Of a stretch of 64,000 bases of DNA, positions 26,378-51,426 are shown piece after piece. Each line of letters opens with the position of its first letter. The stretch's first letter is position 1. The DNA is from Candidatus Shapirobacteria bacterium (GTDB lineage Bacteria; Patescibacteriota; Microgenomatia; UBA12405): positions 5,867 to 69,866 of the forward strand of contig JBAYIT010000002.1 in the NCBI GenBank assembly GCA_041665485.1, given 5' to 3'. Below the pieces are notes generated by a model. That model ran no database searches and was not told the DNA's origin. It saw nothing but the letters and a program-made list of their open reading frames with translations. Both the position numbers and the translations under genes were made by a program.

Positions 26378-27872
26378 ACGTCGGCTTATCCCAATCGTCT
26401 TAATAATCTGCCTCTCTCTTCTCTCCGTTTACCGGTTGTTGCGTCCTGGTTTTCTTTCTCTTCAAGACGATATGCATGTTTTTCGCTTACAGGAATTCCA
26501 CCAGTGTCTTATTGACGGCCAAATTCCCTGCCGTTATTCCACTACTGCCTCTTTCAATTACGGCTCACCCATTTTTAATTTCTACCCACCTCTTTCCTAT
26601 ATTATTCCCGAATTATTTCATCTTCTTGGTTTTTCTCTTGCCGACAGCATTAAACTCCTTCTCATTTTTTCTGCTGTTATCCGTGGTTTAGGCATGTACT
26701 TTCTTGCCGGTCCAGTTGCTGCCATTCTTTATATTTTCGCCCCTTACCAAGCCCTAAACACCTTTGTTCGTGGCGCTATTGCCGAAAACCTAGCCCTAAG
26801 CCTTCTGCCTTGGCTAATTCTGAGTTTAAAATATAAAAGATTTGCTTCCGCCACTCTCTTTTCAACTCTGCTCCTATTAACTCATCAACTTTCTATCATC
26901 GCCTTTCTGCCAATAATTGCCGGATTTTGCCTAATCGAAAAAATATCTTTTAAAAAATTAATAACTATTTCAACTCTTTCTCTTGGTCTTTCTTCGTTTT
27001 TTTTATTGCCCTCTATTTTCGAAAGGGGATTCACTACTAATAGCACTATGTTTACCGACTATTTTGATTATCATCTCCACTTTGTCAGTCTTTATCAAAT
27101 TTTTATCTCTCGCTTTTGGGGTTATGGTGCTTCCAATTGGGGAATAGGCGATGGCATGGGTTTTACTATTGGCCAAATTCAATTTATCATCCCATTTTTA
27201 CTTTTTTTATTTTCTCCAAAAAAGATTAAACTCAAAATTATCCCCTTACTTGGTCTTGCTCTTTTCTTTCTTTTCCTCACTCACCAACGTTCTACTTTTA
27301 TTTGGCAAGCCATACCTTTTTTGGCCTTTTTCCAATTTCCCTGGCGTTTTATTGGTCCAGCCGTTTTTCTGTTCTCTTATGCTTCAGGTTTAATCAAAAT
27401 TAATCGGTTGTTTATCATCCTCATTGCCGTCTTGGCCATCACCTCCAATATAAATTTCTTTCATGAAGACTTGTGGTATAAAAATCCAGATTTTCTCACT
27501 CAAAAATCAGAATCAGGTTTTCGTGATTTTTGGCCAAAATCCGGTAATCAATTTCCAGACAAACCCGCTCCTGCCACCACTGATGTTTCTAATTTCTCCA
27601 AAACCTCAAACCAAATAAATTTCACCTCCAATTTTGACAAGCCAACACTTACCGAATTGCCCTTAGTCTATTTTCCCGGCTGGAAAGCCACCATCAACCT
27701 TAGGCCCGCTAGTATTATCGTCAACCCTGATCTTGGCCAGATAAACCTTGATATTCCTGCCGGTAAAAACCAAATAAATTTAACTTTTGCCGATACTCCA
27801 ATTAGAAAAGCAGGTAACATTATTTCTTTGGGAACACTAGTTATTATATTAATAACCCTCCTACCACTATGA
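26367..27872 (+). CDS. Large polytopic membrane protein, GT-C-like family B (paralog of 1878..3581)
   Basis: 'LQDDMHVFRLQEFHQCLIDGQIPCRY...PIFNFYPPLSY' matches the motif of 1878..3581. The ATG at 26367 (MKTKRR) is preferred over the 26316 ORF start, which would overlap the upstream gene by 62 nt. Confidence 0.65.
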   Translation: MKTKRRLIPIVLIICLSLLSVYRLLRPGFLSLQDDMHVFRLQEFHQCLIDGQIPCRYSTTASFNYGSPIFNFYPPLSYIIPELFHLLGFSLADSIKLLLIFSAVIRGLGMYFLAGPVAAILYIFAPYQALNTFVRGAIAENLALSLLPWLILSLKYKRFASATLFSTLLLLTHQLSIIAFLPIIAGFCLIEKISFKKLITISTLSLGLSSFFLLPSIFERGFTTNSTMFTDYFDYHLHFVSLYQIFISRFWGYGASNWGIGDGMGFTIGQIQFIIPFLLFLFSPKKIKLKIIPLLGLALFFLFLTHQRSTFIWQAIPFLAFFQFPWRFIGPAVFLFSYASGLIKINRLFIILIAVLAITSNINFFHEDLWYKNPDFLTQKSESGFRDFWPKSGNQFPDKPAPATTDVSNFSKTSNQINFTSNFDKPTLTELPLVYFPGWKATINLRPASIIVNPDLGQINLDIPAGKNQINLTFADTPIRKAGNIISLGTLVIILITLLPL

Positions 27873-29464
27873 AAAAGTGGCCAAAATTTCTATTTGTCGT
27901 TATTCTTCTTCTATCCGCGTTTATCCGCTTCTATCAGTTAGATCATTTCCCTCCCAGCCCCAATTGGGACGAAGTTAGTCACGGTGTTAATGCTCAAAGT
28001 ATCTTAGAAACGGGAGCCGATCAATGGGGCCAAAAATTTCCTCTCTTCAATTTTCGTGCTTACGGCGATTATCCAACTGTCGCCAACATGTATTTCACTA
28101 TCCCTTTTATTAAAATCCTTGGTCTCAACACTTTATCTATTAGATTACCTTCGGCCATCTTTGGTTTTCTTTTCGTTCCTTTAATTTTCTTTTTATGTCA
28201 GATTTTGTTTGGCCAAACCAGAATCTCTCTCATCGCGATGTTTATTACTGCCATTGCCCCTTGGTCCTTTTTCCCTTCCCGCGCTGTTTTTCAATCAACT
28301 ACCGCCATTACTTTTCTTATCGCCGCCATTACTTTCTTTTTTTATTTTTATTATCATCATAAATCTTATCTCATATTTCTTAGTTCTCTCTTCTTAGGCT
28401 TATCCATGTACGCCTACCACAACACCAGGCTAATCGCCCCTTTGATCTTTGTCTATCTTTTTTGGTCAATCAAAAAATCATTTAAAAAAGTAGTTTTCCC
28501 TATCCTGTTATTTTTATTTTTTGCCGTCCCTTCTTTAATTAATCTTCTTTCTCCTGAATCCCGGGCCCGTGGTTATTGGGTTTCTTTAATTAACCCCAGT
28601 GCCATCAATTTAATCAACGAACAACGTCGGCTTTATGAAGGCCCACCAATTCTAAATTTGATCCTTCACAATAAAGTTACTTACGCCGTCCCTCAAATTA
28701 CCCTTAATTTCTTGAATTTTTTCAACCCCATTCCTTTATTTTTTACTGGTACCGGCCAATATCAATTCAATGTTGCCGGAAAGGGTCTCCTCTTTCCCGT
28801 TTGGCTTCCGTTTTTCTATCTTGGATTGTTATCTCTTTGGCGTCATCGCCAAAAACCATCTTATCGGTTTTTAATCTTTTGGCTTATTGTCGGCTTATTT
28901 CCTGCCATTATTACCTCCGGTGATTTTGCTTCCATCCGCGCCACCACTGCCATGCCTGTTTACCTTATTCTCACTGCCCTAGGCATCAATCAGTTTCTTT
29001 CCTCCCTTCCAATAATTCTTATCATTATTGCTTCACTTTTATCTTTTTCTAATTATCTTTATCTTTACATCACCTCTTACGCTCAAAATTACTCCCAATC
29101 TTGGCAATTTGGCTACCAAGAAGCCATAGAAATCATCAAACCCATCTACTCTAAGTACGACCATATCTATTTTACTAAAAAATACGGCGAACCCCATGAA
29201 TTCATTCTCTTCTTTTGGCCTTGGAGTCTCAAAAGCTTTCAGAATGATCCTAATTTAGGTTGGGACTATCATGCTTATTGGTATTGGGTCAACTCCTTTG
29301 ATAAATTTATATTCCTCAATGATTGGGAGATAACCAAATATTCTTTCCCCCCCAATAGTCTTTTGGTAACCTCTCCCCAAAATTATTCTGGCAAACCGGT
29401 TAAAATATCAGCAGTTAAGTTTCTTGATCAGTCGGTCGCTTTTGACATTGTCGGCTATGAATAA
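27869..29464 (+). CDS. ArnT/PMT-like GT-C membrane glycosyltransferase (paralog 5; first of three tandem copies)
   Basis: 'FPPSPNWDEVSHGVNAQSILETGADQWGQKFPLFNFRAYGDY' D-E loop. C-terminal domain 'WQFGYQEAIEIIKPIYSKYDHIYF...FILFFW'. Confidence 0.7.
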   Translation: MKKWPKFLFVVILLLSAFIRFYQLDHFPPSPNWDEVSHGVNAQSILETGADQWGQKFPLFNFRAYGDYPTVANMYFTIPFIKILGLNTLSIRLPSAIFGFLFVPLIFFLCQILFGQTRISLIAMFITAIAPWSFFPSRAVFQSTTAITFLIAAITFFFYFYYHHKSYLIFLSSLFLGLSMYAYHNTRLIAPLIFVYLFWSIKKSFKKVVFPILLFLFFAVPSLINLLSPESRARGYWVSLINPSAINLINEQRRLYEGPPILNLILHNKVTYAVPQITLNFLNFFNPIPLFFTGTGQYQFNVAGKGLLFPVWLPFFYLGLLSLWRHRQKPSYRFLIFWLIVGLFPAIITSGDFASIRATTAMPVYLILTALGINQFLSSLPIILIIIASLLSFSNYLYLYITSYAQNYSQSWQFGYQEAIEIIKPIYSKYDHIYFTKKYGEPHEFILFFWPWSLKSFQNDPNLGWDYHAYWYWVNSFDKFIFLNDWEITKYSFPPNSLLVTSPQNYSGKPVKISAVKFLDQSVAFDIVGYE

Positions 29465-31034
29465 AACAAAAATAATTTTATTCTTAATTGTTCTACTTGG
29501 TTTTCTCCTAAGATTCTACCGAATAGGGGAGTATCCTCCGCTTCTTTGGGACGAAGCCGCTCTCGGTTACAATGCTTATTCACTTCTTCAAACCGGAAGG
29601 GACGAACATGGTGCCTTTTTTCCATTAATTCTCAAATCTTTTGGCGATTACAAACCGGCCATTTATTCTTATCTTTCTATTCCCTTTGTCTTCCTTTTTG
29701 GTCTTAATGAAACATCTGTCAGGCTGGTTTCTATTATTGCCGGCTGTCTTTCCCCTTTGTTTTTGTACTTTCTTATTAATAAAATCGATTCAAAAAAACA
29801 GAAAGTCGCCTTACTATCAGCTTTAGTATTGGCTGTCACTCCTTTTGCTATCCACTTTTCCCGTGGCGCTTGGGAAACTAACCTATTGGTTTTTGAAATT
29901 ATTGTTAGCCTCTATTTCTTCTTTTCCCAAAAGTTTTTTCTTTCCGCTTTTATTCTTTCTCTTTCACTTTACACCTATCAGTCAGCCAAAATGCTTGTTC
30001 CCTTTATCTTCTTACCTCTGATTCTACAATCTCTGAAACAACACCCAAAAATTATCTTTACCAAGTTCCTCATCCCAATTCTTATCTTTTCTCTCCCGCT
30101 CCTATGTGGTCTTCTGTTTTCTCAAGACTCGGGTCGTCTTAAAGTCGTTAGTCTCTTTTCCTATCCTCAAAGCCAGGAAGAGATATCAGTTATCAAAAAC
30201 GAAACGGGAAACTTTGATTATTTGCTCTTCCACAATAAATATCTAAATTTTGGCCGCCAGTTTTTAACCCGTTACTTTAATCACTTTTCTCCCCGTTTCT
30301 TATTCTTTGATGGCGATTGGCAATCTCCCCGCCATAGCGCCCCTTACATCGGCGTCCTCCTCCTCCCCTCTACCTTGTTCCTAATTTTAGGACTGATTAC
30401 TAATTACCGTTTACCAATTACCAAATTATTCCTCTACTGGCTTCTTATCGCCCCCATTCCTTCTTCTCTCACCCGCGATCTCCTTTCCGGCGTCCGCTCC
30501 CTCTTTCTTGTCATCCCTCTCACTTATTTCACTGCCCTCGGTATCCGCCGGATTACGGATCACCGTTCACGATTCACGTATCTAGTTACTAGTATCATGT
30601 TTCTAGTATCTTTAATCTATTACTCCGATCTCTACTACAGCCATATGGTCAAAAAGTCACCTTTCGATTTTCTTTATGGTAATAAGGAAGTTGCCCAATT
30701 TGTCATTAACAACCAACAAAATTACGATCGTATTTATTATTCCGACTTTTATGGCCAACCTTACATCTTCTATCTTTTCTACTCCCAATATTCCCCCAAG
30801 AAATACCAAGCCAAAAATCATTTAAGTTTATCCGGGCCAGACATTGGACATGTTGAAAAAATCGACAATATTCTTTTTGCTTCACCCGATTTCAATTTCA
30901 TTAGAAATCAACCTCAAAAAATTTTAGCCATTTTTAGTTTTGACGAAGTAGAGAGGCAGGGGATAGATAAAAAATTATTAACCCCTATTTCTACTATTGG
31001 CAATATTACCACCTACTATGCCTACTCTAATTAA
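29457..31034 (+). CDS. ArnT/PMT-like GT-C membrane glycosyltransferase (paralog 6)
   Basis: 'YPPLLWDEAALGYNAYSLLQTGRDEHGAFFPLILKSFGDYKP'. C-terminal domain 'YGNKEVAQFV...YIFYLFYSQY'. The ORF begins at 29424, but M12 at 29457 (MNKTKIILF) is the likely start. Confidence 0.7.
   Translation: MNKTKIILFLIVLLGFLLRFYRIGEYPPLLWDEAALGYNAYSLLQTGRDEHGAFFPLILKSFGDYKPAIYSYLSIPFVFLFGLNETSVRLVSIIAGCLSPLFLYFLINKIDSKKQKVALLSALVLAVTPFAIHFSRGAWETNLLVFEIIVSLYFFFSQKFFLSAFILSLSLYTYQSAKMLVPFIFLPLILQSLKQHPKIIFTKFLIPILIFSLPLLCGLLFSQDSGRLKVVSLFSYPQSQEEISVIKNETGNFDYLLFHNKYLNFGRQFLTRYFNHFSPRFLFFDGDWQSPRHSAPYIGVLLLPSTLFLILGLITNYRLPITKLFLYWLLIAPIPSSLTRDLLSGVRSLFLVIPLTYFTALGIRRITDHRSRFTYLVTSIMFLVSLIYYSDLYYSHMVKKSPFDFLYGNKEVAQFVINNQQNYDRIYYSDFYGQPYIFYLFYSQYSPKKYQAKNHLSLSGPDIGHVEKIDNILFASPDFNFIRNQPQKILAIFSFDEVERQGIDKKLLTPISTIGNITTYYAYSN
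30551..30620 (+). repeat. Degenerate 7-nt periodic array at the homologous position of paralog 29457..31034
   Basis: gattacg gatcacc gttcacg attcacg tatctag ttactag tatcatg tttctag tatcttt aatctat. Confidence 0.6.
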
Positions 31035-32607
31035 AAACAATTTTTGGTTACTACTCATTATTTTTTTGGCCGCCGTCTTGCGGTTCTACAATATTGGTAA
31101 TTATCCTACTCTTAATCCCGACGAAGCCGCTCTTGGTTACAATGCTTACTCTTTAATTCAAACCGGTAAAGACGAACACGGCGCTTCCTGGCCTCTCCAT
31201 TTTAAATCATTTGGCGACTTTAAACCCGGAGGTTACGTCTATTTAGCTATCCCTTTTATTGCCACCTTTGGTCTTACTCCACTGGCCGTTCGTCTCCCTA
31301 ATCTTCTGCTTTCGCTTTTAACCATACTTTATTTCTATAAAATAGCTTTTTTGTTCACCAAATCGCGACAAATTTCTTTGATTTCAGCTTTGTTTTTAGC
31401 CATTAACCCCTGGCATCTCCATTTTTCCCGTGGCGCTTGGGAATCATCTTCTGCTCTGGCTTTTTTAGTTATTGGTAGCTACTACTTTCTTGTTCGTCGT
31501 TATTTTCTTTTTGTTCTCACTTTTGTCGCCTCTCTCTATCTCTACCACTCTGCCCGTATCGTTGCCCCACTTCTGGCCTTGTCATATCTTTTTATTCATA
31601 AATCATATTTCATAAATCATAAATCAAAATTAATTTTCCCAATACTTATCGGTATTCTCCTCACTTTCCCCGTTCTTTTCTCATTTCTTAAAAACGGTGG
31701 TACTACCCGTTTTGGCGGTGTTGGTTTAACTGCCGACACCGGCCCGTTATCCCGTTCTGAAGAACTTCTTAATCACCACATGAGTACCGCCCTGCCTTTA
31801 AGAATTCTTCATAATCGTCGGGTACTTTATCTTATGTCTTGGGGGCAAAAATATTTTTCCCACTTTGATCTCAATTTTCTTTTTATTAATGGTGATGAAG
31901 TTCCCCGTTCCAAAGTTCCCGATATGGGCCAACTTTACCTTCTTCAACTTCCGTTTCTTCTATATGGTATTTATATTTTCTTTCAATCTAAGATCTATCA
32001 TCTAAAATCTAAGATCTTTGTATTGTCTTGGCTTTTAATCTCCCCCCTTGCCTCTTCTTTCACTTTTCAAGCCCCCTCTGCCCTCCGCGCCCTACCCCTG
32101 GTTATCCCCCTCACTTTTCTCTCCGCCCTCGGCTTTTATTGGTTTACGTATCACCTATCACGTACCTTGTACCTTGTACCTTGTACCTTGTACCTAGTCT
32201 CTTGTCTCTTCTATCTTGATTCTTATCACAATCATTATCAAAAACGCTATCCCTTTGCCTGGAATTATGGCTTTAGTCAAGTTATTCCTTACCTTAATTC
32301 CCAAAAAGACAACTATCAAAATATCTATTTTACTAACAAATACGATCAGCCCTATATTCTCTATCTCTTCTTTTCAAAGTATCCTCCGCAAAAAATTCAA
32401 TCGCAAATAAAACTCACCCCGCCCGATAAATTCGGTTTTTCCACTGTATCCCAAATCGACAACATCTACTTTGGTAAAATTGAGTGGGACAAAATTTCAA
32501 CTAACTCATTAATTATTTCTTCTCCAGACGAAAAAGCCCCAATTCCACCAATTAAAACAATTGAAGTTCAACCCAACAAAGCTGTTTTCAATATTTATCA
32601 AAAATAA
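31018..32607 (+). CDS. ArnT/PMT-like GT-C membrane glycosyltransferase (paralog 7); contains three heptanucleotide-periodic arrays
   Basis: 'YPTLNPDEAALGYNAYSLIQTGKDEHGASWPLHFKSFGDFKP'. C-terminal domain 'WNYGFSQVIPYL...YILYLFFSKY'. The ORF begins at 30997; M8 at 31018 is likely. Confidence 0.7.
   Translation: MPTLIKNNFWLLLIIFLAAVLRFYNIGNYPTLNPDEAALGYNAYSLIQTGKDEHGASWPLHFKSFGDFKPGGYVYLAIPFIATFGLTPLAVRLPNLLLSLLTILYFYKIAFLFTKSRQISLISALFLAINPWHLHFSRGAWESSSALAFLVIGSYYFLVRRYFLFVLTFVASLYLYHSARIVAPLLALSYLFIHKSYFINHKSKLIFPILIGILLTFPVLFSFLKNGGTTRFGGVGLTADTGPLSRSEELLNHHMSTALPLRILHNRRVLYLMSWGQKYFSHFDLNFLFINGDEVPRSKVPDMGQLYLLQLPFLLYGIYIFFQSKIYHLKSKIFVLSWLLISPLASSFTFQAPSALRALPLVIPLTFLSALGFYWFTYHLSRTLYLVPCTLYLVSCLFYLDSYHNHYQKRYPFAWNYGFSQVIPYLNSQKDNYQNIYFTNKYDQPYILYLFFSKYPPQKIQSQIKLTPPDKFGFSTVSQIDNIYFGKIEWDKISTNSLIISSPDEKAPIPPIKTIEVQPNKAVFNIYQK
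31596..31637 (+). repeat. Degenerate heptamer array (TCATAAA-like x6)
   Basis: tcataaa tcatatt tcataaa tcataaa tcaaaat taatttt, inside 31018..32607 (encodes 'FIHKSYFINHKSKLI'). Confidence 0.65.
31987..32021 (+). repeat. Degenerate heptamer array (ATCTAAG-like x5)
   Basis: atctaag atctatc atctaaa atctaag atctttg, inside 31018..32607 (encodes 'QSKIYHLKSKIF'). Confidence 0.65.
32149..32217 (+). repeat. Heptanucleotide-periodic tandem array including perfect (GTACCTT)x4
   Basis: tatcacc tatcacg gtacctt x4 gtaccta gtctctt gtctctt ctatctt, inside the ArnT-like paralog 31018..32607 (translated '...YHLSRTLYLVPCTLYLVSCLFYL'). Confidence 0.85.
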
Positions 32608-33390
32608 ATGAAAAAACCAACAATTTCCATTGCCATCGCCACCTACAATGAAGCTGACAACATTAAACAATGCCTCAAAGCTGTTGTCGATTGGGCTGAT
32701 GAAATCGTCATTTACGATGCTGAATCCATTGACGATACCGTCAAAATCATTAATACTTTCCCCAAAACCAAACTAATCACTGGCCCCAACCATCCTATCT
32801 TTCATATTAATAAGCAACGAGCTATTGACGTTTGTAAATCTGATTGGATTCTCCAGCTTGATGCTGATGAGATTGTCACTCCAGAGCTTAAGTCAGAAAT
32901 TTTGACCACCATTTCAAATAACCCTTCAGAAAATGGTTTTTGGATCGACCGTAAAAATTATTTTCTTGGACGATTCTTAACCAAAGGTGGCGTTTACCCA
33001 GATCCAACTATCCGTCTTTATCGTCGCAATAAAGGCAAATTACCATGTAAAGATGTTCACGAACAGGCAAGAATAATTGGTAGTGTTGGCCATCTTAAAT
33101 CCGACCTTCTCCACTATGCTGACCCTTCTTTTCAACGTTACTTAATGCGCAACAATCGCTACACTGGCCTAATTGCCACCGAATTAGAATCCCAAAAAGT
33201 TCCTCTTAATTTATTCTTCGGCCTAAATTATTTTCTTCTCAAGCCTATTATTAACTTTTTTTCTACTTATTTTCGCCACAAGGGTTTTGCTGATGGTTTT
33301 CCCGGGTTTATCTTTTCTTGGTATTCGTCTCTTCGCTTTCCTATTTCTTTTATCAAATATTGGGAATTAAAAAATGGCAAAACAGATTAA
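32608..33390 (+). CDS. GT2 glycosyltransferase with C-terminal hydrophobic segment (ArnC-like)
   Basis: 'ISIAIATYNEADNIKQCL...DEIVIYDAESIDDT' and 'DADE' DXD. C-terminal 'LFFGLNYFLLKPIINFF'. Confidence 0.7.
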   Translation: MKKPTISIAIATYNEADNIKQCLKAVVDWADEIVIYDAESIDDTVKIINTFPKTKLITGPNHPIFHINKQRAIDVCKSDWILQLDADEIVTPELKSEILTTISNNPSENGFWIDRKNYFLGRFLTKGGVYPDPTIRLYRRNKGKLPCKDVHEQARIIGSVGHLKSDLLHYADPSFQRYLMRNNRYTGLIATELESQKVPLNLFFGLNYFLLKPIINFFSTYFRHKGFADGFPGFIFSWYSSLRFPISFIKYWELKNGKTD

Positions 33391-34447
33391 AGTTGCTCTT
33401 GACATATCTCCCCTCAAAGATGGCAACGCCAACCGTGGCATGGGCTATTATGTCCGCAACTTACTCACCGCCATGCAATCACAAATCTCCTCCAACCCCA
33501 ACTTCAAAAACTTTAAAATTTCAGAAGTTAGAAATTGGAAATTAGAAATTGGAAATTTTGATTTACTCCATATTCCTTACTTCAACCCTTTCTCCCCCTC
33601 CTATCCTATTCATCTCCAAATACCCACAGTCATTACTGTCCCTGACTTAATTCCTATCGCTTACAAAAAACATTACACAGTTGGCATCAAAGGCACACTC
33701 AATTGGTGGCGACAAAAACTATTTCTCAAAAATATTCCCTATATTATCACTATCGCTCACTCTCAAAAATATATCATTCATAAAATTACTGGCTATCCGC
33801 TTGATCGCATTTACGTCACATGGCTAGCTGCCGCCAGCCACTTCAAGCCGGAAACTTCAAAAATAAAACTAAATCAAATTAAGAAAAAATATAATCTGCC
33901 AGACAAATTTGTTCTCTATGTTGGTGATATTAACTGGAATAAAAACATTCCTCGTCTTGTTAGTAGTTGCCTCGATTTAAAATATCCATTAGTTATTGTC
34001 GGTAGCTCCGCCACTAGAAAAAATATTACCGATCATCCTTGGAATCAAGATTTACTTTGGGTCCAATCTCACTCCAATCAAATCACTTTAACTGGTTTTG
34101 TCCCCGACGAAGATATACCTGTCATTTATTCTTTGGCCACTATTTACTGTCAACCATCATATTCCGAAGGTTTTGGTCTACCCTTAGTTGAAGCCATGAA
34201 AACCGGCTGTCCTGTCAGCTATAGTCAAGAGCCAACTTGTCAGGAAATTATGGATTATCACGGTGATTTTTTTGATCCTAACTCTACTGCCGGTCTTAAA
34301 GATTCTCTTAAGAGGCTCTGGTCAGATCCTGAACTTAGGAAAAAGTTAGCAATCGAGGGATTAAAACATTCGCAAATCTTCGACTGGAAACTAACAGCCA
34401 TTCAAACTCTCACTCTTTATTCCCAAATCTACCATGAAAATCACTGA
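33374..34447 (+). CDS. GT4 (GT-B fold) glycosyltransferase
   Basis: 'CQPSYSEGFGLPLVEAMKTGCPVSYS' EX7E region. Carries a GG(A/T)AATT heptamer array at 33523..33557. Confidence 0.7.
   Translation: MAKQIKVALDISPLKDGNANRGMGYYVRNLLTAMQSQISSNPNFKNFKISEVRNWKLEIGNFDLLHIPYFNPFSPSYPIHLQIPTVITVPDLIPIAYKKHYTVGIKGTLNWWRQKLFLKNIPYIITIAHSQKYIIHKITGYPLDRIYVTWLAAASHFKPETSKIKLNQIKKKYNLPDKFVLYVGDINWNKNIPRLVSSCLDLKYPLVIVGSSATRKNITDHPWNQDLLWVQSHSNQITLTGFVPDEDIPVIYSLATIYCQPSYSEGFGLPLVEAMKTGCPVSYSQEPTCQEIMDYHGDFFDPNSTAGLKDSLKRLWSDPELRKKLAIEGLKHSQIFDWKLTAIQTLTLYSQIYHENH
33523..33557 (+). repeat. Heptamer array (AGAAATT/GGAAATT) x5, with a perfect 14-mer x2
   Basis: agaagtt agaaatt ggaaatt agaaatt ggaaatt, inside GT4 33374..34447 (encodes 'EVRNWKLEIGNF'). 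Confidence 0.8.
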
Positions 34448-35237
34448 GCACTTCCTTTCAGTCATCATCCCTATCTATAAACAAGAGAAAACTATTTTGA
34501 CCGATATTACCAATATTCAAAAAACTCTTGATCAAATCCGCTACGATTACGAAATTATCGCCGTAGTTGACGGTAAAAATATCGATCGATCTTATCAAAT
34601 TCTTAAGAAAGCCAAAATTCCCAAAGTTAAAATTTACGGTTACCCCAACAATTATGGTAAAGGTTACGCTGTCCGTTTTGGTATGGCCAAAACTAAGGGC
34701 GACTATGTTGCCTTTATTGATGCCGGTATGGAAATCGACCCTAACGGCATTTCCATGATTCTCGAGCACATGGAGTGGTACAACGCCGATATTATTGTTG
34801 CCTCAAAAAGGCACCCCGCCTCTCAAGTTAAATACCCGTTAGATCGCCAAATTGTTAGTTTCGGCGCCCATCTTATCGCCAGATTTTTGCTCGGCATTAA
34901 TGTTCACGACACTCAAGCCGGTCTTAAAATATTCAAAAGATCAGTTTTGGTAAAGGTTCTTCCTCGACTTTTGGTAAAAAATTATGCTTTTGATTTAGAA
35001 ATATTATCAGTTTCTAATCGCCTTGGTTTTAATCGTATCTTCGAGGCCCCCATTAAACTTAGTTATGCCTTTGATAGTCTAACTCACGCCGGTAGTTACA
35101 AAACTATTATTAGATGTTTTATTGAATCTCTAGCTGTTTTTTATCGTCTAAATATCATTAAATTTTATGATGACAACAACAAGCGACAATGGGTGTTTAA
35201 TAAAGACCTACAAATGAGAATTAATACCGGCCGATGA
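34434..35237 (+). CDS. GT2 glycosyltransferase, DPM1/GtrB-like (candidate polyprenyl-phosphate hexose synthase)
   Basis: 'LSVIIPIYKQE...YEIIAVVDGKNIDRS...YGYPNNYGKGYAVRFGMAKTKGDYVAFIDAGMEIDP' is the typical DPM1/GtrB-like GT2 core. Confidence 0.65.
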   Translation: MKITEHFLSVIIPIYKQEKTILTDITNIQKTLDQIRYDYEIIAVVDGKNIDRSYQILKKAKIPKVKIYGYPNNYGKGYAVRFGMAKTKGDYVAFIDAGMEIDPNGISMILEHMEWYNADIIVASKRHPASQVKYPLDRQIVSFGAHLIARFLLGINVHDTQAGLKIFKRSVLVKVLPRLLVKNYAFDLEILSVSNRLGFNRIFEAPIKLSYAFDSLTHAGSYKTIIRCFIESLAVFYRLNIIKFYDDNNKRQWVFNKDLQMRINTGR

Positions 35238-36151
35238 AACCCCTATTCTCTGTAATTATTCCCGTTCGTCATCCTACCGACTATCTTGAAGAGACAGTCA
35301 GGGCCCTCGACAAGCAGTCTCTTAACAACTTTGAACTCCTAGTTATTACCGACAAAATAGCCGGTAATGTCTCACCGGCAATTAAGCGTAATCTTGGTGC
35401 CAAGATGGCCAAAGGAGAATATCTTGCCTTTCTCGACGACGATTCTTATCCTTCTTCTGATTGGCTCAAAAACGCCCGAAAACACTTTTCCAAAAATATC
35501 ACTGCCGTCTGTGGCCCTTGTTTAACACCTCCAAGTGATGATGTTTTTCGCCAAGCGTCTGGTCTCGTTTGGTCTAGTTTTCTTGGCAGTGGTGGGGCAG
35601 GGGAGTATCGTAATAATATTGCCAAACCTCGATTTGTCGACGATTTTCCTTCTGTCAATTTGATAGTCAAAAAAAGTGATTTTTTAGAAGTTAAAGGCTT
35701 TAATACTCATCACTGGCCGGGAGAAGACACTATTCTTTGTTTAGATCTGACCCACAAACTTCATAAAAAAATCTTCTATCATCCTAGCGTTCAAGTTTTC
35801 CATCACCGCCGAAAAGTTATAATCCCCCATCTTCAACAAATCACCCGCTACGCTATTCATCGTGGTCTTTTTGCTAAAATCTACCCCCAAACTAGCCTTC
35901 GAATTGGTTACATTCTCCCCTCCCTCTTTATTATATATTTATTATTATTGCCGTTATTGCCAAAGACATTTTTAATTCCACTATTTATCTATCTGCTTCT
36001 ACTTCTATTTACTTTTTTCAATTTTATTTTAAAAAATAGCCTTATCGTTTCTCTTTTGGCTACTATCACCATTCCCATTACTCACCTTTATTATGGTATA
36101 TTTTTCATCCGTGGTTTATTCAAAAATGAACTAAAGTTTATCCCCCTATGA
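35234..36151 (+). CDS. GT2 glycosyltransferase with C-terminal TM helices
   Basis: 'LFSVIIPVRHPTDYLEETVRALDKQSL..FELLVITD' and 'FLDDDSYP' DXD. The C-terminal approx. 90 aa are strongly hydrophobic. Confidence 0.7.
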   Translation: MKPLFSVIIPVRHPTDYLEETVRALDKQSLNNFELLVITDKIAGNVSPAIKRNLGAKMAKGEYLAFLDDDSYPSSDWLKNARKHFSKNITAVCGPCLTPPSDDVFRQASGLVWSSFLGSGGAGEYRNNIAKPRFVDDFPSVNLIVKKSDFLEVKGFNTHHWPGEDTILCLDLTHKLHKKIFYHPSVQVFHHRRKVIIPHLQQITRYAIHRGLFAKIYPQTSLRIGYILPSLFIIYLLLLPLLPKTFLIPLFIYLLLLLFTFFNFILKNSLIVSLLATITIPITHLYYGIFFIRGLFKNELKFIPL

Positions 36152-37578
36152 AAATAGCTATTTCATATCCGCCGTTAGATTCATCAAAGGGCTCTGCCTT
36201 TCTTTCTCAAAATCGCCAGTTTCAGTGGACAAACACCGGTAATATTATTTATCCGGTTATCGCTGCTTATGCCGCTACTCTCCTCCAAAAACTTGGCCAT
36301 CAAGTATTTTGGGACGATGCCATTGTTCAAAAACTTGACTATCAAACCTGGCTTAATCGTCTTATCAGACAAAAACCAGATCTCATCGTTATTGAATCCA
36401 AAACTCCGGTTATTAAACTCCATTGGCAAATCATTAAAGACCTAAAAAGAAGGAATTTGGAAATTGGTAATTGGAAATTGGTTATTTGTTTAATTGGCGA
36501 TCATGTTTCCGCTCTCCCTGAAGAATCAATTAAAAATTCCCCCGTCGACTTCGTTTTAGTCGGCGGTGACTACGATTTCTTGCTTGAAAAACTAGTTAAT
36601 CTCTTGTCCAAAAATAAAATACCAAAAAACAAAATTATAAAAGTTAGCCCAACACACAATCTTGATTCGCTCCCCATAATCGACCGAAAACTAACCCAAT
36701 GGCATCTTTATGCCTACAACAACACCAACTATAAATATAAGCCTGGAGCCTACATCATGTCTGGTCGTGACTGCTGGTGGGGGAGTTGTACTTTCTGTTC
36801 TTGGACATCTCTTTTTCCCGGAAAAACATTCCGTAAATTCAGCGTCGACCACACTATCTCTGAAATCGAAAACTTAGTTAACAATTTTGGTGTCAAAGAA
36901 ATTTTTGATGACTCCGGCACTCTTCCCACTGGCCAATGGCTTGAAAACTTATGTCATCAATTAATTGATAAAAAGTTAAGTCAAAAAGTTAAACTCGGTT
37001 GCAATATGCGTTTTGGTGCTTTGAACCAAGAACAATACTATCTAATGAAACAAGCCGGCTTTCGTTTAGTGCTTTATGGCCTTGAATCGGCTAATCAAAA
37101 AACACTTGACTTAATTAATAAAAATGAAAAGACTTCTGATGCTATTAAAACCTTGCAAATGGCCAAAAAGGCCGGCCTTGAACCACATATCACCGTCATG
37201 ATCGGCTATCCTTGGGAAACTGAATCGGATGCCATCAAAACTCTCAATCTTGCTCGTAAAATTTTTCGAGAAGGGTTGGCCGATAGTATCCAAGCCACCC
37301 GAATTATTCCCTATCCGGGCACGGTTCTCTTTAATCAATCCCTCAAAAATAATTGGCTTTTATCTAAAGATTGGCAGGATTATGACATGCGCCAAAGTAT
37401 CATCAAATCACCCATCAGCTCTGCAAAACAAGAAAAACTAATACTTAGCCTTTTTAAGGGTGTTCTCACTCCTAATTTTCTTATTCGCAAAATCCTTTCC
37501 GTTCGGTCTCTTTATGATATTAAGTTTCTTACTGGCTATGCCATCAAATACCTCCAAAAAATCAGGGATTTTAAATAA
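36148..37578 (+). CDS. B12-binding-domain radical SAM enzyme (class B rSAM)
   Basis: N-terminal cobalamin-binding-like domain ('DFVLVGGDYDF') followed by 'SGRDCWWGSCTFCSW' (CxxxCxxC). 476 aa. Carries a GG(A/T)AATT heptamer array at 36453..36487. Confidence 0.7.
   Translation: MKIAISYPPLDSSKGSAFLSQNRQFQWTNTGNIIYPVIAAYAATLLQKLGHQVFWDDAIVQKLDYQTWLNRLIRQKPDLIVIESKTPVIKLHWQIIKDLKRRNLEIGNWKLVICLIGDHVSALPEESIKNSPVDFVLVGGDYDFLLEKLVNLLSKNKIPKNKIIKVSPTHNLDSLPIIDRKLTQWHLYAYNNTNYKYKPGAYIMSGRDCWWGSCTFCSWTSLFPGKTFRKFSVDHTISEIENLVNNFGVKEIFDDSGTLPTGQWLENLCHQLIDKKLSQKVKLGCNMRFGALNQEQYYLMKQAGFRLVLYGLESANQKTLDLINKNEKTSDAIKTLQMAKKAGLEPHITVMIGYPWETESDAIKTLNLARKIFREGLADSIQATRIIPYPGTVLFNQSLKNNWLLSKDWQDYDMRQSIIKSPISSAKQEKLILSLFKGVLTPNFLIRKILSVRSLYDIKFLTGYAIKYLQKIRDFK
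36453..36487 (+). repeat. Heptamer array GG(A/T)AATT x5
   Basis: ggaattt ggaaatt ggtaatt ggaaatt ggttatt, inside the rSAM gene 36148..37578 (encodes 'RNLEIGNWKLVI'). Same unit as 33523..33557. Confidence 0.75.
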
Positions 37579-50436: not shown

Positions 50437-51426
50437 ATGATACCGAAAAAACGGAAAAAATCAAATAAATCAAAAATTAATCAACCAACTGGAATATCGA
50501 TCGTCATTCCCAATTGGAACGGCCAAGCCTTCTTGCCCTCCTGCCTTAACTCTCTATTAACCTCCATCAAAAAAACCAAAAACATATTGTTTGAAATAAT
50601 CCTTGTCGACAACGCCTCCACCGACAAATCTGTCTCTATCTTTAAATCCAGCGTACCAGCTTACCAGCGTACTAAGGTATTGCGACTCCGTCGCAATACC
50701 GGCTTCGTCTACGCCGTCAACAGAGGCATTGAAGCTTCCCAATTCGATTACGTTTGCATTTGCAACAACGACCTTACTGTTGATCAAAATTGGTTTACCG
50801 AAATCGTCAAAGCCATCCAGCGCACCAGCGAACCAGCGAACCATCGCACCAGCGAACCAATCACCACTTTCTCCGGTCTAGTTCTCAACAAAGATGGCAC
50901 TAAAATCGAGAGCAGGGGGTTAAGATTCTACCCATATGGCAAAGCCGAAAACATCGCCAACGGCCTCCCTTTTTCAAAAACTAACATCCATCATCTAAGT
51001 TCTAAGAACTATCTGATTTGGGGTTCTTCCGCCTCCATAGTCATCTACCACAAACCGACTATTTTAAAAGTTGGTCTCTTTGATGAACGTTTCTTTGCCT
51101 ACGAAGAAGATGTTGACCTCGCCTACCGCCTTAACAAATCCGGCTTCAAAACCCTCTTTGTTCCCACCGCCATCTCTTATCATCTTGGTGGCGGTACTTC
51201 TTCTAAAATGGGCAACTTCCGCCAACAGATGGATTTCAAAAATTGGATTTTATTAATTGCCAAAAACTATAGTTTCAGGGAAATCCTTGCCAATTCTCCA
51301 GTCATTTTCATCGAACGCCTTAGAAACCTCTCCGGTGTTGTTAAATCCACCCCCCTCCCCAAACTCCCTCAAACCCTCTTTTCCGTCTTCTCCCAAACCC
51401 TCTCTGCCCTTATTCAAAAAAAATAA
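50437..51426 (+). CDS. GT2 family glycosyltransferase carrying in-frame octamer-repeat insertions
   Basis: 'ISIVIPNWNGQAFLPSCL...IILVDNASTDKS' and 'ICNNDLTVDQNWF'. Octamer arrays CCAGCG(A/T)A at 50649..50672 and 50818..50865 encode 'PAYQRTK' and 'QRTSEPANHRTSEP'. Confidence 0.7.
   Translation: MIPKKRKKSNKSKINQPTGISIVIPNWNGQAFLPSCLNSLLTSIKKTKNILFEIILVDNASTDKSVSIFKSSVPAYQRTKVLRLRRNTGFVYAVNRGIEASQFDYVCICNNDLTVDQNWFTEIVKAIQRTSEPANHRTSEPITTFSGLVLNKDGTKIESRGLRFYPYGKAENIANGLPFSKTNIHHLSSKNYLIWGSSASIVIYHKPTILKVGLFDERFFAYEEDVDLAYRLNKSGFKTLFVPTAISYHLGGGTSSKMGNFRQQMDFKNWILLIAKNYSFREILANSPVIFIERLRNLSGVVKSTPLPKLPQTLFSVFSQTLSALIQKK
50649..50672 (+). repeat. Octamer array CCAGCG(T)TA x3
   Basis: ccagcgta ccagctta ccagcgta, inside GT2 50437..51426. 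Confidence 0.8.
50818..50865 (+). repeat. Octamer array CCAGCG(A/C)A x6 (degenerate)
   Basis: ccagcgca ccagcgaa ccagcgaa ccatcgca ccagcgaa ccaatcac. 48 nt, in frame, encoding 'QRTSEPANHRTSEPIT'. Confidence 0.8.

What the first reader, a model, noticed from the sequence alone, without database searches (positions are those of the whole stretch)
33523..36487. The same GG(A/T)AATT heptamer array embedded in two unrelated genes (a GT4 and a radical SAM), both encoding an 'EIGNWKL' peptide
33523..33557 lies in GT4 33374..34447 and 36453..36487 lies in rSAM 36148..37578. Each is five tandem 7-nt units of GGAAATT/AGAAATT/GGTAATT. They are translated in frame as 'NWKLEIGNF' and 'NLEIGNWKLVI'. Finding the same short repeat family in two functionally unrelated ORFs about 3 kb apart points to a mobile or slippage-generated mini-insertion rather than conserved protein sequence. 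A host-tolerated insertion site, a recombination target or a regulatory RNA motif are all possibilities.
Basis: seen in the sequence. Interest (0 to 1): 0.65.

Follow-up and report, generated by a model that had tools for sequence, protein, structure and literature searches.

The report
In-frame heptanucleotide repeats inside genes
The two matching 'EIGNWKL' segments are short tandem 7-base DNA repeats that arose on the spot inside loop-coding parts of two enzymes; such repeats turn out to be common, and to arise repeatedly, in genes of this group of uncultivated bacteria, including essential genes.

Summary
Both sites are five-unit arrays of GGAAATT-type heptamers, and the shared peptide follows automatically from the shared 7-nt unit. 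They are two of seven period-7 arrays, all lying in 30.4-36.5 kb of this Candidatus Shapirobacteria glycosylation cluster. No other period behaves this way. Across 80 related species the same gene positions are 7-periodic, but with different units in different lineages, and close relatives differ at the same positions of every unit (concerted change). Codon choice is more periodic than the peptide requires. GT4 shows no length change, so its array is not an insertion. The rSAM array matches other "+4 aa" forms in length.

A metagenome scan found at least 120 perfect (GGAAATT)4 blocks. Of the 80 examined, 73 lie inside ORFs of at least 100 aa, in either orientation, and all three frames are used. 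Hosts include LeuRS, TsaD and TrmD of other CPR lineages. In LeuRS the array overwrites 18 nt without changing length, and its distribution among relatives is patchy.

Perfect runs measure 7n plus 2-6 nt, which is a microhomology signature. I found no frameshifted alleles. The best reading is heptanucleotide microsatellites made in situ by out-of-register copying and tolerated in protein loops. They do not look like a mobile element, a switch or a binding site.

The parts
33523..33557 (+). Heptamer array in the GT4 gene: AGAAGTT AGAAATT GGAAATT AGAAATT GGAAATT. It encodes aa 51-62 (EVRNWKLEIGNF). The stretch TTAGAAATTGGAAATTAGAAATTGGAAATT is TT(GGAAATT)4 with two G>A changes.
   Evidence: Synonymous null P=0.0055. 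In the AlphaFold model the peptide is the coil between strands 47-52 and 64-67, with local pLDDT 72.
36452..36486 (+). Heptamer array in the radical SAM gene: GGAATTT GGAAATT GGTAATT GGAAATT GGTTATT. It encodes aa 102-114 (RNLEIGNWKLVIC) and is anchored on the conserved Trp codon.
   Evidence: Synonymous null P=0.003. In the model it spans the end of helix 89-105, the loop 106-111 and the start of strand 112-116.
33374..34447 (+). Host gene 1: GT4-type glycosyltransferase, 357 aa.
   Evidence: Pfam Glycos_transf_1 2e-24. Identical to an NCBI/JGI protein of a Candidatus Shapirobacteria MAG.
36148..37578 (+). Host gene 2: radical SAM protein with an N-terminal B12-binding-like Rossmann domain, 476 aa.
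   Evidence: Pfam Radical_SAM 1.7e-14. Homologues also carry PF02310.
30389..30427 (+). Heptamer array (ATTACTA ATTACCG TTTACCA ATTACCA) in GT-C/PMT-like gene 29424..31034. The unit is the reverse-complement rotation of GGTAATT.
   Evidence: Synonymous null P=0.002.
30548..30611 (+). Two adjoining 7/14-nt periodic stretches in the same GT-C gene: ATTACGG ATCACCG TTCACGA TTCACGT, then GTATCTA GTTACTA GTATCAT.
   Evidence: Synonymous null P=0.0015.
31589..31637 (+). Heptamer array (TTCATAA ATCATAT TTCATAA ATCATAA ATCAAAA) in GT-C gene 30997..32607.
   Evidence: P=0.0005. Conserved in the 76%-identical relative L082.
31982..32021 (+). Heptamer array (AATCTAA GATCTAT CATCTAA AATCTAA GATC) in the same GT-C gene. 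In relative L082 the same site carries TCATAAA units.
   Evidence: P=0.002.
32141..32224 (+). The longest array, about 12 units: TATCACC TATCACG, then a perfect (GTACCTT)x4.9 run (32162-32195), then GTCTCTT x2. It lies in a predicted hydrophobic segment of the GT-C gene.
   Evidence: TRF 100% matches. Lag-7 score 0.96. None of 2000 synonymous resamples reached it. Relative L082 has different units over the same length.

Best explanation
Both segments are heptanucleotide simple-sequence repeats that formed in place, inside DNA that codes for structurally permissive loops.

Proposed mechanism. A local seed holds one unit plus a 2-6 nt repeat of its own start (for example AATTGGAAATT, from Asn-Trp-Lys-Leu codons). 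During replication or repair this seed lets the growing strand re-pair 7 nt out of register and copy the unit again. Only products that keep the reading frame and an acceptable loop length survive. The result is usually about four units (about 30 nt), often with no net change in length. Further out-of-register copying then keeps the units alike, so whole arrays change in concert. Point mutations erode them.

Why GGAAATT recurs. It is one of few A/T-rich heptamers with no stop codon in any of the six frames, and it encodes loop-compatible residues. That is why the same unit appears in both genes.

What is shown: the repeats are real, DNA-level, site-specific, recurrent, concerted and length-neutral, and their run lengths carry a microhomology signature. 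What is inferred: the enzymatic step (slippage or template switching), the reason for the number 7, and the absence of function.
For: 1. Period 7 is specific. In the window, 7 arrays occur at lag 7 and at most 2 at any other lag not a multiple of 7, from 4 to 21 (lags 14 and 21 re-detect the same arrays). In 1.18 Mb from 80 related species, 68 arrays occur at lag 7 (about 8 of these are runs of N) against 8-30 at other lags, the 30 being lag 14. In 0.52 Mb of metagenome loci the counts are 164 against at most 24 at any lag other than 14.

2. The arrays are site-specific. At GT4 aa 46-66 the best lag is 7 in 43 of 79 species, and at rSAM aa 96-118 in 14 of 59. Array density is 34.8 per 100 kb in GT4 and 0 in the neighbouring GT2 gene. 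It is about 3 per 100 kb outside the cluster genes, mostly at their junctions.

3. The signal is at the DNA level. See the synonymous-codon nulls.

4. Change is concerted. L082 (76% nt identity) has ATCACGA/ATTACGA where the window has AGAAATT/GGAAATT, over the same length. L020 and L021 are 96.1% identical without gaps, yet inside the array they differ at 188/189, 195/196, 202/203, 209/210 and 216/217.

5. Origin is in situ and length-neutral. GT4 shows no indel. For LeuRS, 72 of 111 homologues have the loop EFPIxGREEKIKVF, the same length as KFPISNFQFPIEVF. The seed AATTTCCAAT pre-exists and 18 nt are overwritten. The nearest relatives (81% and 79% identity) lack the array, while more distant ones have it or decayed copies.

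6. Microhomology signature. Over 2.08 Mb, perfect period-7 runs measure 7n+e with e=2-6 and almost never 0-1. Counts at 16-20 nt are 52, 47, 36, 29, 32; at 21-22 nt, 5 and 1; at 23-27 nt, 5, 6, 7, 8, 5; at 28-29 nt, 1 and 1; at 30-34 nt, 4, 5, 5, 3, 3. Periods 5, 6, 8, 9 and 10 show no such pattern.

7. The unit is favoured. GGAAATT ranks 30th of 1608 stop-free classes under the window's codon usage. It is one of 39 classes with at least 5 A/T that are stop-free in all six frames.

8. The peptides sit in loops.

9. Literature. Heptanucleotide repeats were reported as the most abundant long SSR class in most prokaryote genomes, and polymerase slippage was proposed as the cause (Mrazek 2007, as summarised in PMC4692102 and PMC4679880).
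Against: No copy-number variation was seen. The only second assembly of this strain is identical, and 15 strain-level variants of one array-bearing LeuRS all have the same array length.

Ordinary slippage adds or removes units, so it does not by itself explain length-neutral overwriting. That needs either a compensating loss or a template switch that rejoins in register, and neither is shown.

Four-unit arrays are commoner than a smooth decline predicts. The counts for 2, 3, 4 and 5 units are 196, 31, 20 and 0. This is only partly explained.

Four LeuRS genes whose flanking synonymous sites are scrambled carry a 100% identical block of about 30 nt. That would also fit selection on the DNA itself.

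Within a genome, different sites share units more often than expected (identical unit in 12.8% of pairs against 2.3%; P=7e-4). This could indicate exchange between arrays or a shared template. Shared ancestry and base composition are possible confounders.
Confidence: 0.65

Rival explanations
1. Contingency loci. The heptamer tracts would be slippage-prone ON/OFF switches (7 is not a multiple of 3) that let the population vary its surface glycosylation, as in phase-variable glycosyltransferases and the neuO heptanucleotide tract of E. coli K1.
For: The window arrays all lie in a glycosylation cluster. The unit length is frameshifting. One tract is a perfect (GTACCTT)x4.9. Some arrays sit just upstream of the GT4 start in other species. 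Two independent assemblies of a relative (L085, L086) both begin inside a perfect (GGAAATT)n GT4 array, as expected for a long or polymorphic tract. Concerted change at constant length would follow from repeated loss and regain of one unit.
Against: No frameshifted allele was found at any array among 80 species and about 6 sites. All split genes were explained by N runs, unrelated deletions or large insertions. The two arrays in question are imperfect and only 4-5 units long. The same kind of array, including perfect (GGAAATT)4, lies in essential genes such as LeuRS, TsaD, TrmD and SecA, where switching off would be lethal. Array length is invariant in 15 strain-level LeuRS variants. Array length at the GT4 site is nearly constant across species.
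Confidence: 0.12
2. A tiny mobile or templated element. A block of about 30 nt, TT(GGAAATT)4, would be copied from a donor (DNA or RNA template) into tolerant sites of many genes, in either orientation.
For: There are at least 120 perfect copies in metagenome contigs of 28-63% GC. Of 80 examined, 74 have exactly 4 units, always preceded by TT and with a sharp right edge. Both orientations and all three frames are used. The block is identical in LeuRS genes with divergent flanks, even in a 55% GC genome. Units are shared between sites within a genome. GC-rich palindromes are inserted at the very same GT4 and rSAM loop sites in other species.
Against: There is no net insertion in GT4 or LeuRS. 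The arrays are in register with pre-existing local codons: the Trp codon in rSAM, Phe-Pro-Ile in LeuRS, and the Leu codons flanking the GT4 loop. Many different units occur at the same orthologous site. The 'fixed ends' follow from the general 7n+e rule, which holds for every unit. There are no target duplications, no terminal inverted repeats and no candidate enzyme.
Confidence: 0.08
3. A functional nucleic-acid signal. The arrays would be binding sites for a protein that reads 7-nt steps on DNA or mRNA, such as cold-shock-domain proteins or ribbon-helix-helix repressors of the omega type, or an RNA element that affects translation.
For: Periodicity is conserved at orthologous sites while the sequence drifts. 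Synonymous positions are constrained. Arrays are identical across divergent LeuRS genes. CspB is reported to bind one heptamer per protein with weak sequence specificity (PMC4679880).
Against: Units differ widely between sites in one genome: GGAAATT, TTCATAA, AATCTAA, GTACCTT, ATTACCA. Either strand can be the coding strand (25 sense, 48 antisense). The arrays sit in protein loops, not at fixed positions relative to starts or stops. Half or more of the species lack the periodicity at each site. Rfam gave no hit. A binding model does not predict the 7n+e length rule.
Confidence: 0.05
4. Coincidental low complexity. A/T-rich codon usage plus Lys/Asn/Glu/Ile/Leu-rich loop peptides would give 7-nt periodicity by chance.
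For: K-L-K-I-K-N written in A/T-rich codons (AAA TTA AAA ATT AAA AAT) is itself 7-periodic. The window is 32-41% GC. GGAAATT ranks high under the window's codon usage.
Against: Markov and dinucleotide-preserving controls argue against it. No comparable excess appears at any other period. Synonymous resampling of the actual peptides rarely reaches the observed score. Arrays with non-A/T-rich units (GTACCTT, ATCACGA, AAGAGCT) occur at the same sites. Perfect blocks occur in 55-63% GC contigs.
Confidence: 0.02

Closest known systems
Long simple-sequence repeats of prokaryotes with heptanucleotide units (Mrazek, Guo and Shah 2007, as summarised in PMC4692102 and PMC4679880)
   Same: These are tandem head-to-tail 7-nt units, far in excess over other unit lengths. 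Polymerase slippage is the proposed cause, and arrays turn over quickly between relatives.
   Different: Those surveys stress intergenic repeats and note that units divisible by three are the ones favoured inside genes. Here, units not divisible by three sit in frame inside conserved genes, some of them essential. They usually have about four units, often cause no length change, and recur at the same protein loops across a radiation.
neuO heptanucleotide tract (AAGACTC)n of E. coli K1. PMC13001214 appeared in my search but was not opened; every detail here is from my own knowledge.
   Same: A heptanucleotide repeat is translated inside the coding region of an enzyme that modifies a surface polysaccharide. 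The peptide is a by-product of the DNA repeat.
   Different: The neuO tract is long, perfect and variable in number, and it switches the gene on and off. The arrays here are short and mostly imperfect, no OFF alleles were found, and the same kind of array occurs in essential genes.
Dispersed heptamer repeat families: cyanobacterial STRR, TAACTGA of Beggiatoaceae (PMC4679880), GGGAATC of Xanthomonas and GGGGA(C/T)T of Nostoc (PMC4692102)
   Same: One favoured heptamer recurs in short tandem sets (2-6 copies) at many places in a genome and across lineages, with no known mechanism of spread.
   Different: Those families are mainly intergenic, close to gene ends, with one dominant unit per genome, and regulatory or G-quadruplex roles have been proposed. 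Here the arrays are intragenic and translated, and many units coexist in one genome.
Rickettsia palindromic elements: selfish DNA inserted in frame into protein-coding genes (Ogata et al. 2000; from my own knowledge)
   Same: Repeated DNA is tolerated in frame in surface loops of conserved proteins, including housekeeping enzymes.
   Different: Those elements are 100-150 nt palindromic insertions with a net gain in length and a common origin. The arrays here are about 30 nt of direct tandem repeats, grown from local sequence and often length-neutral.

Membership tests
Heptanucleotide simple-sequence repeat (prokaryotic long SSR) | Head-to-tail copies of one short unit, more than chance gives | tested here: met
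   TRF, shuffles, and the lag scan against Markov simulations.
Heptanucleotide simple-sequence repeat (prokaryotic long SSR) | The repeat exists at the DNA level and is not a consequence of a repeated or constrained peptide | tested here: met
   Synonymous-codon resampling gives P<=0.0055 at all 7 window arrays. 40% of species have P<=0.05 at the GT4 site, against 5% at a control segment.
Heptanucleotide simple-sequence repeat (prokaryotic long SSR) | Signature of slippage or misaligned copying | tested here: met
   Perfect run lengths are 7n+e with e=2-6 and almost never 0-1. Relatives show concerted changes at the same position of every unit.
Heptanucleotide simple-sequence repeat (prokaryotic long SSR) | Copy number varies between closely related strains | tested here: inconclusive
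   The only other assembly of this strain is identical. 15 strain-level LeuRS variants show no length change. Contigs of one relative break inside the array. No read data were available.
Phase-variable contingency locus (neuO type) | Repeat unit not divisible by three, lying inside the reading frame or promoter | tested here: met
   7-nt units lie inside the ORFs.
Phase-variable contingency locus (neuO type) | Both in-frame and out-of-frame alleles are found among genomes or strains | tested here: not met
   No frameshift was found at any array in 80 species.
Phase-variable contingency locus (neuO type) | A long, perfect tract able to slip at high rate | tested here: not met
   The two arrays are 86-95% matched and 4-5 units long. 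Only 32162-32195 is perfect, at 4.9 units.
Phase-variable contingency locus (neuO type) | Confined to dispensable, environment-facing functions | tested here: not met
   True for the window. However, the same arrays occur in LeuRS, TsaD, TrmD, SecA and other core genes elsewhere.
Mobile mini-insertion in coding DNA (RPE-like or small dispersed repeat) | Net insertion relative to orthologues that lack it | tested here: not met
   GT4 has the same length. LeuRS has the same length in 72 of 111 homologues, confirmed at the DNA level. rSAM is +4 aa against one group only.
Mobile mini-insertion in coding DNA (RPE-like or small dispersed repeat) | The same sequence with defined ends at many unrelated sites | tested here: inconclusive
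   TT(GGAAATT)4 with uniform ends is found in at least 120 places. The ends follow the general 7n+e rule, and other units behave alike.
Mobile mini-insertion in coding DNA (RPE-like or small dispersed repeat) | Terminal structure (hairpin or inverted repeat), target duplication, or an associated enzyme | tested here: not met
   The sequence is direct repeats only. The flanks show no conserved features.
Operator or centromere arrays of contiguous heptads (omega / ribbon-helix-helix type) | One consensus heptad shared by all sites of a genome, located in promoter regions | tested here: not met
   At least five unrelated units occur within 6 kb, all intragenic.

The most novel reading that the evidence does not exclude
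CPR bacteria (Patescibacteria) may have a distinctive mutational process: out-of-register templated copying with a 7-nt step. It would repeatedly overwrite about 20-30 nt of loop-coding DNA without changing its length. Unrelated lineages would then independently acquire identical nucleotide blocks and identical decapeptides (FPISNFQFPI, LEIGNWKLEI) in essential proteins such as LeuRS, TsaD and TrmD. This would be a previously undescribed, deterministic source of parallel protein-sequence change. It would also be a genomic footprint of the replication or repair machinery of these organisms.
Probability: 0.3. Interest if true: 0.75.

Novelty: new variant of a known kind. Interest (0 to 1): 0.55.

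Why it matters
If the reading is right, it has four consequences.

1. Annotators and phylogeneticists should expect short stretches in CPR proteins that are identical by parallel mutation and not by descent. Such stretches can mislead alignments, trees and inferences of recombination.

2. The 7n+e length rule and the dominance of period 7 give a measurable footprint of the replication or repair enzymes of organisms that cannot be grown. This makes the old proposal that 7 nt reflects the polymerase's grip on DNA testable in a new lineage.

3. It shows how repeats whose unit is not a multiple of three can persist inside essential genes.

4. For this window specifically, it removes the need to invoke a mobile element, a regulatory RNA or a recombination site.

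Tried and rejected
- **Strain-level variation.** The second contig carrying the GT4 protein (L081) is the same sequence apart from scaffold Ns. The protein collection holds no 90-99% relatives. No copy-number data could be obtained.
- **OFF alleles.** Every split gene in 80 loci was inspected. All were N runs, two unrelated deletions, or 1.2-kb insertions.
- **Length variants in the LeuRS cluster.** Members of 961 and 962 aa looked promising, but the differences from the 947-aa form lie in the C-terminal part of the protein, not in the array.
- **Rfam.** The only match is a sub-threshold plant miRNA family, which is a chance hit.
- **Literature search by sequence.** No paper contains GGAAATTGGAAATT, its complement or the peptides. 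Searches for CPR heptanucleotide repeats found nothing specific.
- **A common YTNNNAN consensus.** I considered a consensus phased on the Leu codons of the GT4 loop. I did not pursue it, because rotating A/T-rich units makes such a fit easy.
- **Ribosomal hopping or frameshifting** linked to the reported lack of ribosomal protein bL9 in Microgenomates. I considered this but had no way to test it, and nothing in the data called for it.
- **Long-range pairing** between the ATTACCA array (30389-30427) and the complementary GGTAATT units at 36452-36486. I set this aside as a by-product of the limited set of units in use.
- **Frame lock.** The idea that arrays can only gain three units at once is weakened by the abundance of 2- and 3-unit runs.

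Full report
**1. The observation**

The window is a contig of a Candidatus Shapirobacteria MAG (Microgenomates, CPR); the GT4 and rSAM proteins are identical to deposited proteins with that name.

At 33523-33557 the sequence reads AGAAGTT AGAAATT GGAAATT AGAAATT GGAAATT. It lies inside a GT4-type glycosyltransferase gene (33374..34447). At 36452-36486 it reads GGAATTT GGAAATT GGTAATT GGAAATT GGTTATT, inside a radical SAM gene (36148..37578).

Tandem Repeats Finder reports both arrays. The 14-mer GGAAATTGGAAATT with up to two mismatches occurs nine times against 3.3 expected, and seven of those nine are in these arrays.

The shared 'EIGNWKL' peptide adds nothing independent. Because 7 and 3 are coprime, all three frames of (GGAAATT)n give the same cyclic heptapeptide GNWKLEI.

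**2. The two arrays belong to a cluster**

A sliding autocorrelation scan (28-nt window, at least 70% matches) finds seven arrays at lag 7. All lie between 30.4 and 36.5 kb. Any other lag from 4 to 21 that is not a multiple of 7 gives at most two; lags 14 and 21 re-detect the same arrays. First-order Markov simulations of the window gave no array in 16 runs and one in 4.

The five other arrays lie in two tandem GT-C (PMT-like) paralogues:
- ATTACCA at 30389-30427
- ATTACGG/ATCACCG followed by GTATCTA at 30548-30611
- TTCATAA at 31589-31637
- AATCTAA at 31982-32021
- a 12-unit stretch at 32141-32224 that contains a perfect (GTACCTT)x4.9

The region is a conserved block: five GT-C genes, then GT2, GT4, GT2, GT2, rSAM and a methyltransferase.

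**3. The repeats are a DNA-level feature**

I kept each peptide fixed and redrew synonymous codons from the cluster's own usage. The resampled sequences reached the observed lag-7 score in 0 to 0.55% of 2000 trials at each of the seven sites.

Across species, 40% of 78 GT4 orthologues have P<=0.05 at this site, and 28% have P<=0.01. A control segment of the same gene gives 5% and 1%. For rSAM the figures are 20% and 10%, against 3% and 0%.

**4. Orthologues**

I fetched the locus from 80 species, with 10 kb on each side. Over 1.18 Mb, lag 7 gives 68 arrays (about 8 of these are runs of N). Other lags give 8-30, the highest being lag 14.

The arrays pile up at fixed protein positions: GT4 aa ~59, rSAM aa ~108, one GT-C gene at aa ~173 and ~334, and one GT2 gene at aa ~245. 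At GT4 aa 46-66 the best lag is 7 in 43 of 79 species, and no other lag is best in more than 7.

Array density is 34.8 per 100 kb in GT4 and 0 in the adjacent GT2 gene. It is about 3 per 100 kb in the 405 kb not covered by cluster genes, and most of those arrays sit at the gene junctions of the cluster. This is therefore not a genome-wide compositional effect.

At one orthologous site the unit differs between lineages: TTrGAAA, CTGAnAT, CTAAnAG, CTCGTAA, TTACCAr, ATCACGr. The segment length stays at 42 or 45 nt between two conserved Leu codons. GT4 has no indel there, so the array is not an insertion.

In rSAM about half of the orthologues have a form that is 4 aa shorter (KKEC-KWKPI). Non-repeat forms of the same length as the array form also exist (KSAKYKRWQPKIVL). 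The array is in register with the conserved Trp codon.

**5. Concerted change**

The closest relative with the whole locus (L082, 76% nt identity) has arrays at the same places and of the same length, but with other units. In GT4 it reads ATTACAG ATCACGG ATCACGA ATTACGA ATTACGA.

L020 and L021 are 96.1% identical over 2768 nt without gaps. Yet 28 of their 108 differences fall in 90 nt at the array. Inside the array they fall at 188/189, 195/196, 202/203, 209/210 and 216/217, which are the same two positions of each unit. Independent point mutation cannot produce this pattern. Either the units are homogenised in place, or a divergent allele was imported; the divergent patch extends 50 nt upstream of the array.

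Different sites within one genome share units more often than different genomes do. Identical units occur in 12.8% of pairs against 2.3%, with site-pair-controlled Wilcoxon P=7e-4. Shared ancestry and base composition could contribute to this.

**6. No sign of switching**

Every gene split in the 80 loci was inspected. All are N runs, two unrelated deletions, or large insertions in rSAM. None is a frameshift at an array.

The only other assembly of this strain is identical. One hint points the other way. Two assemblies of a relative from different samples both begin inside a perfect (GGAAATT)n GT4 array, and their rSAM array is a perfect (GGAAATT)3.

**7. The same block elsewhere**

I examined 80 loci, with contig GC from 28 to 63%.

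- 73 of the 80 lie inside ORFs of at least 100 aa: 25 in the sense orientation (GNWKLEI) and 48 antisense (NFQFPIS). All three frames are used in both orientations.
- The hosts are mostly housekeeping genes: LeuRS and other class I synthetases (6), TsaD (5), TrmD (5), SecA, SecD/F, TGT, RsmH and GatA. There are also three GT4 and two GT2 genes.
- Two hosts could be named, as Parcubacteria and Candidatus Kaiserbacteria.
- The same contigs hold 84 further lag-7 arrays with many different units.

Arrays in essential genes cannot be ON/OFF switches.

**8. The LeuRS test**

Four divergent LeuRS genes carry the identical block in the loop between 'SEGAxIxF' and 'VFTTRPDT'.

Among 111 homologues, 72 have a loop of exactly the same length that reads EFPIxGREEKIKVF. 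The nearest relatives (81% and 79% identity) lack the array. More distant ones (72-73%) have it or decayed copies of it: FPISNFQFSI, FLISNSQFSI, FSIPNSQLSI.

At the DNA level:
- Non-array form: GAA TTT CCA ATC TCT GGT CGG GAG GAG AAA ATC AAA
- Array form: AAA TTT CCA ATT TCC AAT TTC CAA TTT CCA ATT GAG

Eighteen nucleotides are overwritten, the length is unchanged, and the seed AATTTCCAAT is already present. The block is identical in all four genes although their flanking synonymous sites are scrambled.

The simplest reading is repeated, parallel, deterministic formation from a conserved seed, followed by decay. Fifteen strain-level variants of one such LeuRS show no change in array length.

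**9. A length rule**

I measured perfect period-7 runs over all 2.08 Mb held, excluding the searched-for blocks.

| Run length (nt) | Counts |
|---|---|
| 16-20 | 52, 47, 36, 29, 32 |
| 21-22 | 5, 1 |
| 23-27 | 5, 6, 7, 8, 5 |
| 28-29 | 1, 1 |
| 30-34 | 4, 5, 5, 3, 3 |
| 35-47 | none |

Periods 5, 6, 8, 9 and 10 show no such tail or modulation.

Runs are therefore 7n+e with e=2-6. The searched-for blocks follow the same rule: e=2 in 29, 3 in 14, 4 in 9, 5 in 13 and 6 in 5, with only one at e<2. A partial extra unit of at least 2 nt is what copying between short direct repeats 7 nt apart leaves behind. This explains the apparently fixed ends of TT(GGAAATT)4 without invoking a mobile element.

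Arrays of four units are somewhat commoner than a smooth decline predicts. The counts for 2, 3, 4 and 5 units are 196, 31, 20 and 0. This may reflect the in-frame class of three added units, but I do not consider it settled.

**10. Why GGAAATT appears in both genes**

Under the window's codon usage GGAAATT ranks 30th of 1608 stop-free heptamer classes, and it is among the few hydrophilic ones near the top. It is one of only 39 strand-collapsed classes with at least five A/T that are free of stop codons in all six frames.

Units that contain a stop in one frame (AGAAATT, AATCTAA, TCATAAA) appear only as imperfect arrays, in which the offending position alternates.

At the rSAM site every array in every species is of the [AG][AG]AAATT type, and at the GT4 site about half are. 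Finding this unit at both sites in one genome is therefore the commonest state, not a coincidence that needs a special link.

**11. Structure**

In the AlphaFold model of GT4 (pLDDT 89.4), R53-D63 is the coil between strands 47-52 and 64-67 of the N-terminal Rossmann domain. It is the least confident part of that domain, with local pLDDT 72.

In the rSAM model (pLDDT 81.3), aa 102-114 cover the end of helix 89-105, the loop 106-111 and the start of strand 112-116 of the B12-binding-like domain. Both are connecting segments that vary among homologues.

**12. Comparison with what is known**

Heptanucleotide repeats were reported as the most abundant long SSR class in most prokaryote genomes. The suggested reason was that 7 nt matches the stretch of DNA held by the polymerase. 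The same work noted that units divisible by three are the ones favoured in coding DNA (Mrazek 2007, as summarised in PMC4692102 and PMC4679880).

Known heptamer families are mainly intergenic: STRR, TAACTGA and GGGAATC. The neuO tract is coding but is a long variable switch (from my own knowledge; PMC13001214 turned up but was not opened).

What is described here belongs to that kind, with unusual properties. The arrays are in frame inside conserved and essential genes. They are short, often length-neutral and confined to protein loops. They recur in parallel across CPR lineages and evolve in concert. I found no description of this.

**13. Verdict**

The segments are slippage-type DNA repeats in tolerant sites, not conserved protein sequence. 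They are neither insertions nor mobile, and there is no evidence for a regulatory or recombination role.

Confidence in in-situ heptanucleotide SSR formation is 0.65. Phase variation of the glycosylation genes remains a minor possibility (0.12), and read-level data would settle it.

Noticed in passing
window 50648-50672 and 50817-50859 (GT2-like ORF 50437..51426): Two tandem arrays of period 8 lie inside a coding region: CCAGCGTA x3, and CCAGCGCA CCAGCGAA CCAGCGAA CCATCGCA CCAGCGAA. These are the only strong repeats in the window with a period other than 7.
   Followed up: partly
L037 3508-3591, L072 10136-10219, L060 10136-10228 (GT4 loop); L073 4057-4146 and L060 13311-13472 (rSAM loop): In other species the same two loop sites carry in-frame GC-rich insertions in otherwise A/T-rich genes, and those of L037, L072 and L073 contain inverted repeats. 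Examples are a 42-nt perfect palindrome, AATCTTTCCGCCAAAGGCGGA|TCCGCCTTTGGCGGAAAGATT, and CCTGCCTGCCGGCAGGCAGG. This looks like a second, different kind of small insertion that uses the same permissive sites.
   Followed up: no
L018 13577-14793 and L057 5862-7093: In two species the rSAM orthologue is interrupted by about 1.2 kb between aa ~170 and ~246. This could be an intron, an intein or an inserted gene.
   Followed up: no
L085 and L086, position 1: Two Logan assemblies from different runs both start at the same base inside a perfect (GGAAATT)n array of the GT4 gene. This suggests the tract is long or polymorphic enough to break a k=31 assembly.
   Followed up: partly
window 24713-32607: Five GT-C (PMT/PMT_2-like) membrane glycosyltransferase paralogues of 518-554 aa lie in tandem on one strand. 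Several have overlapping ends and TTG starts. The arrays in the last two paralogues lie at homologous protein positions but use different units.
   Followed up: partly
P0241 and its homologues (LeuRS of Candidatus Kaiserbacteria and relatives; L094, L207-L209): These CPR leucyl-tRNA synthetases carry a NUDIX domain (PF00293) inserted within the enzyme. A few homologues are also fused to an alpha/beta hydrolase domain. P0241 has a second heptad-like stretch, SKHEIRNKHEIEKY.
   Followed up: no
window 1-64000: GC skew is negative in every 2-kb bin (-0.06 to -0.41), so the cumulative skew falls steadily across the whole window with no turning point.
   Followed up: no
LeuRS loop of P0269, P0289, P0297, P0338, P0369, P0379: The same LeuRS loop holds another recurrent low-complexity motif, VRTSDVRTSDV, in several lineages. 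This is a 5-aa periodic peptide. It may come from a GC-richer repeat (ACGTCAG-like) and was not analysed at the DNA level.
   Followed up: no
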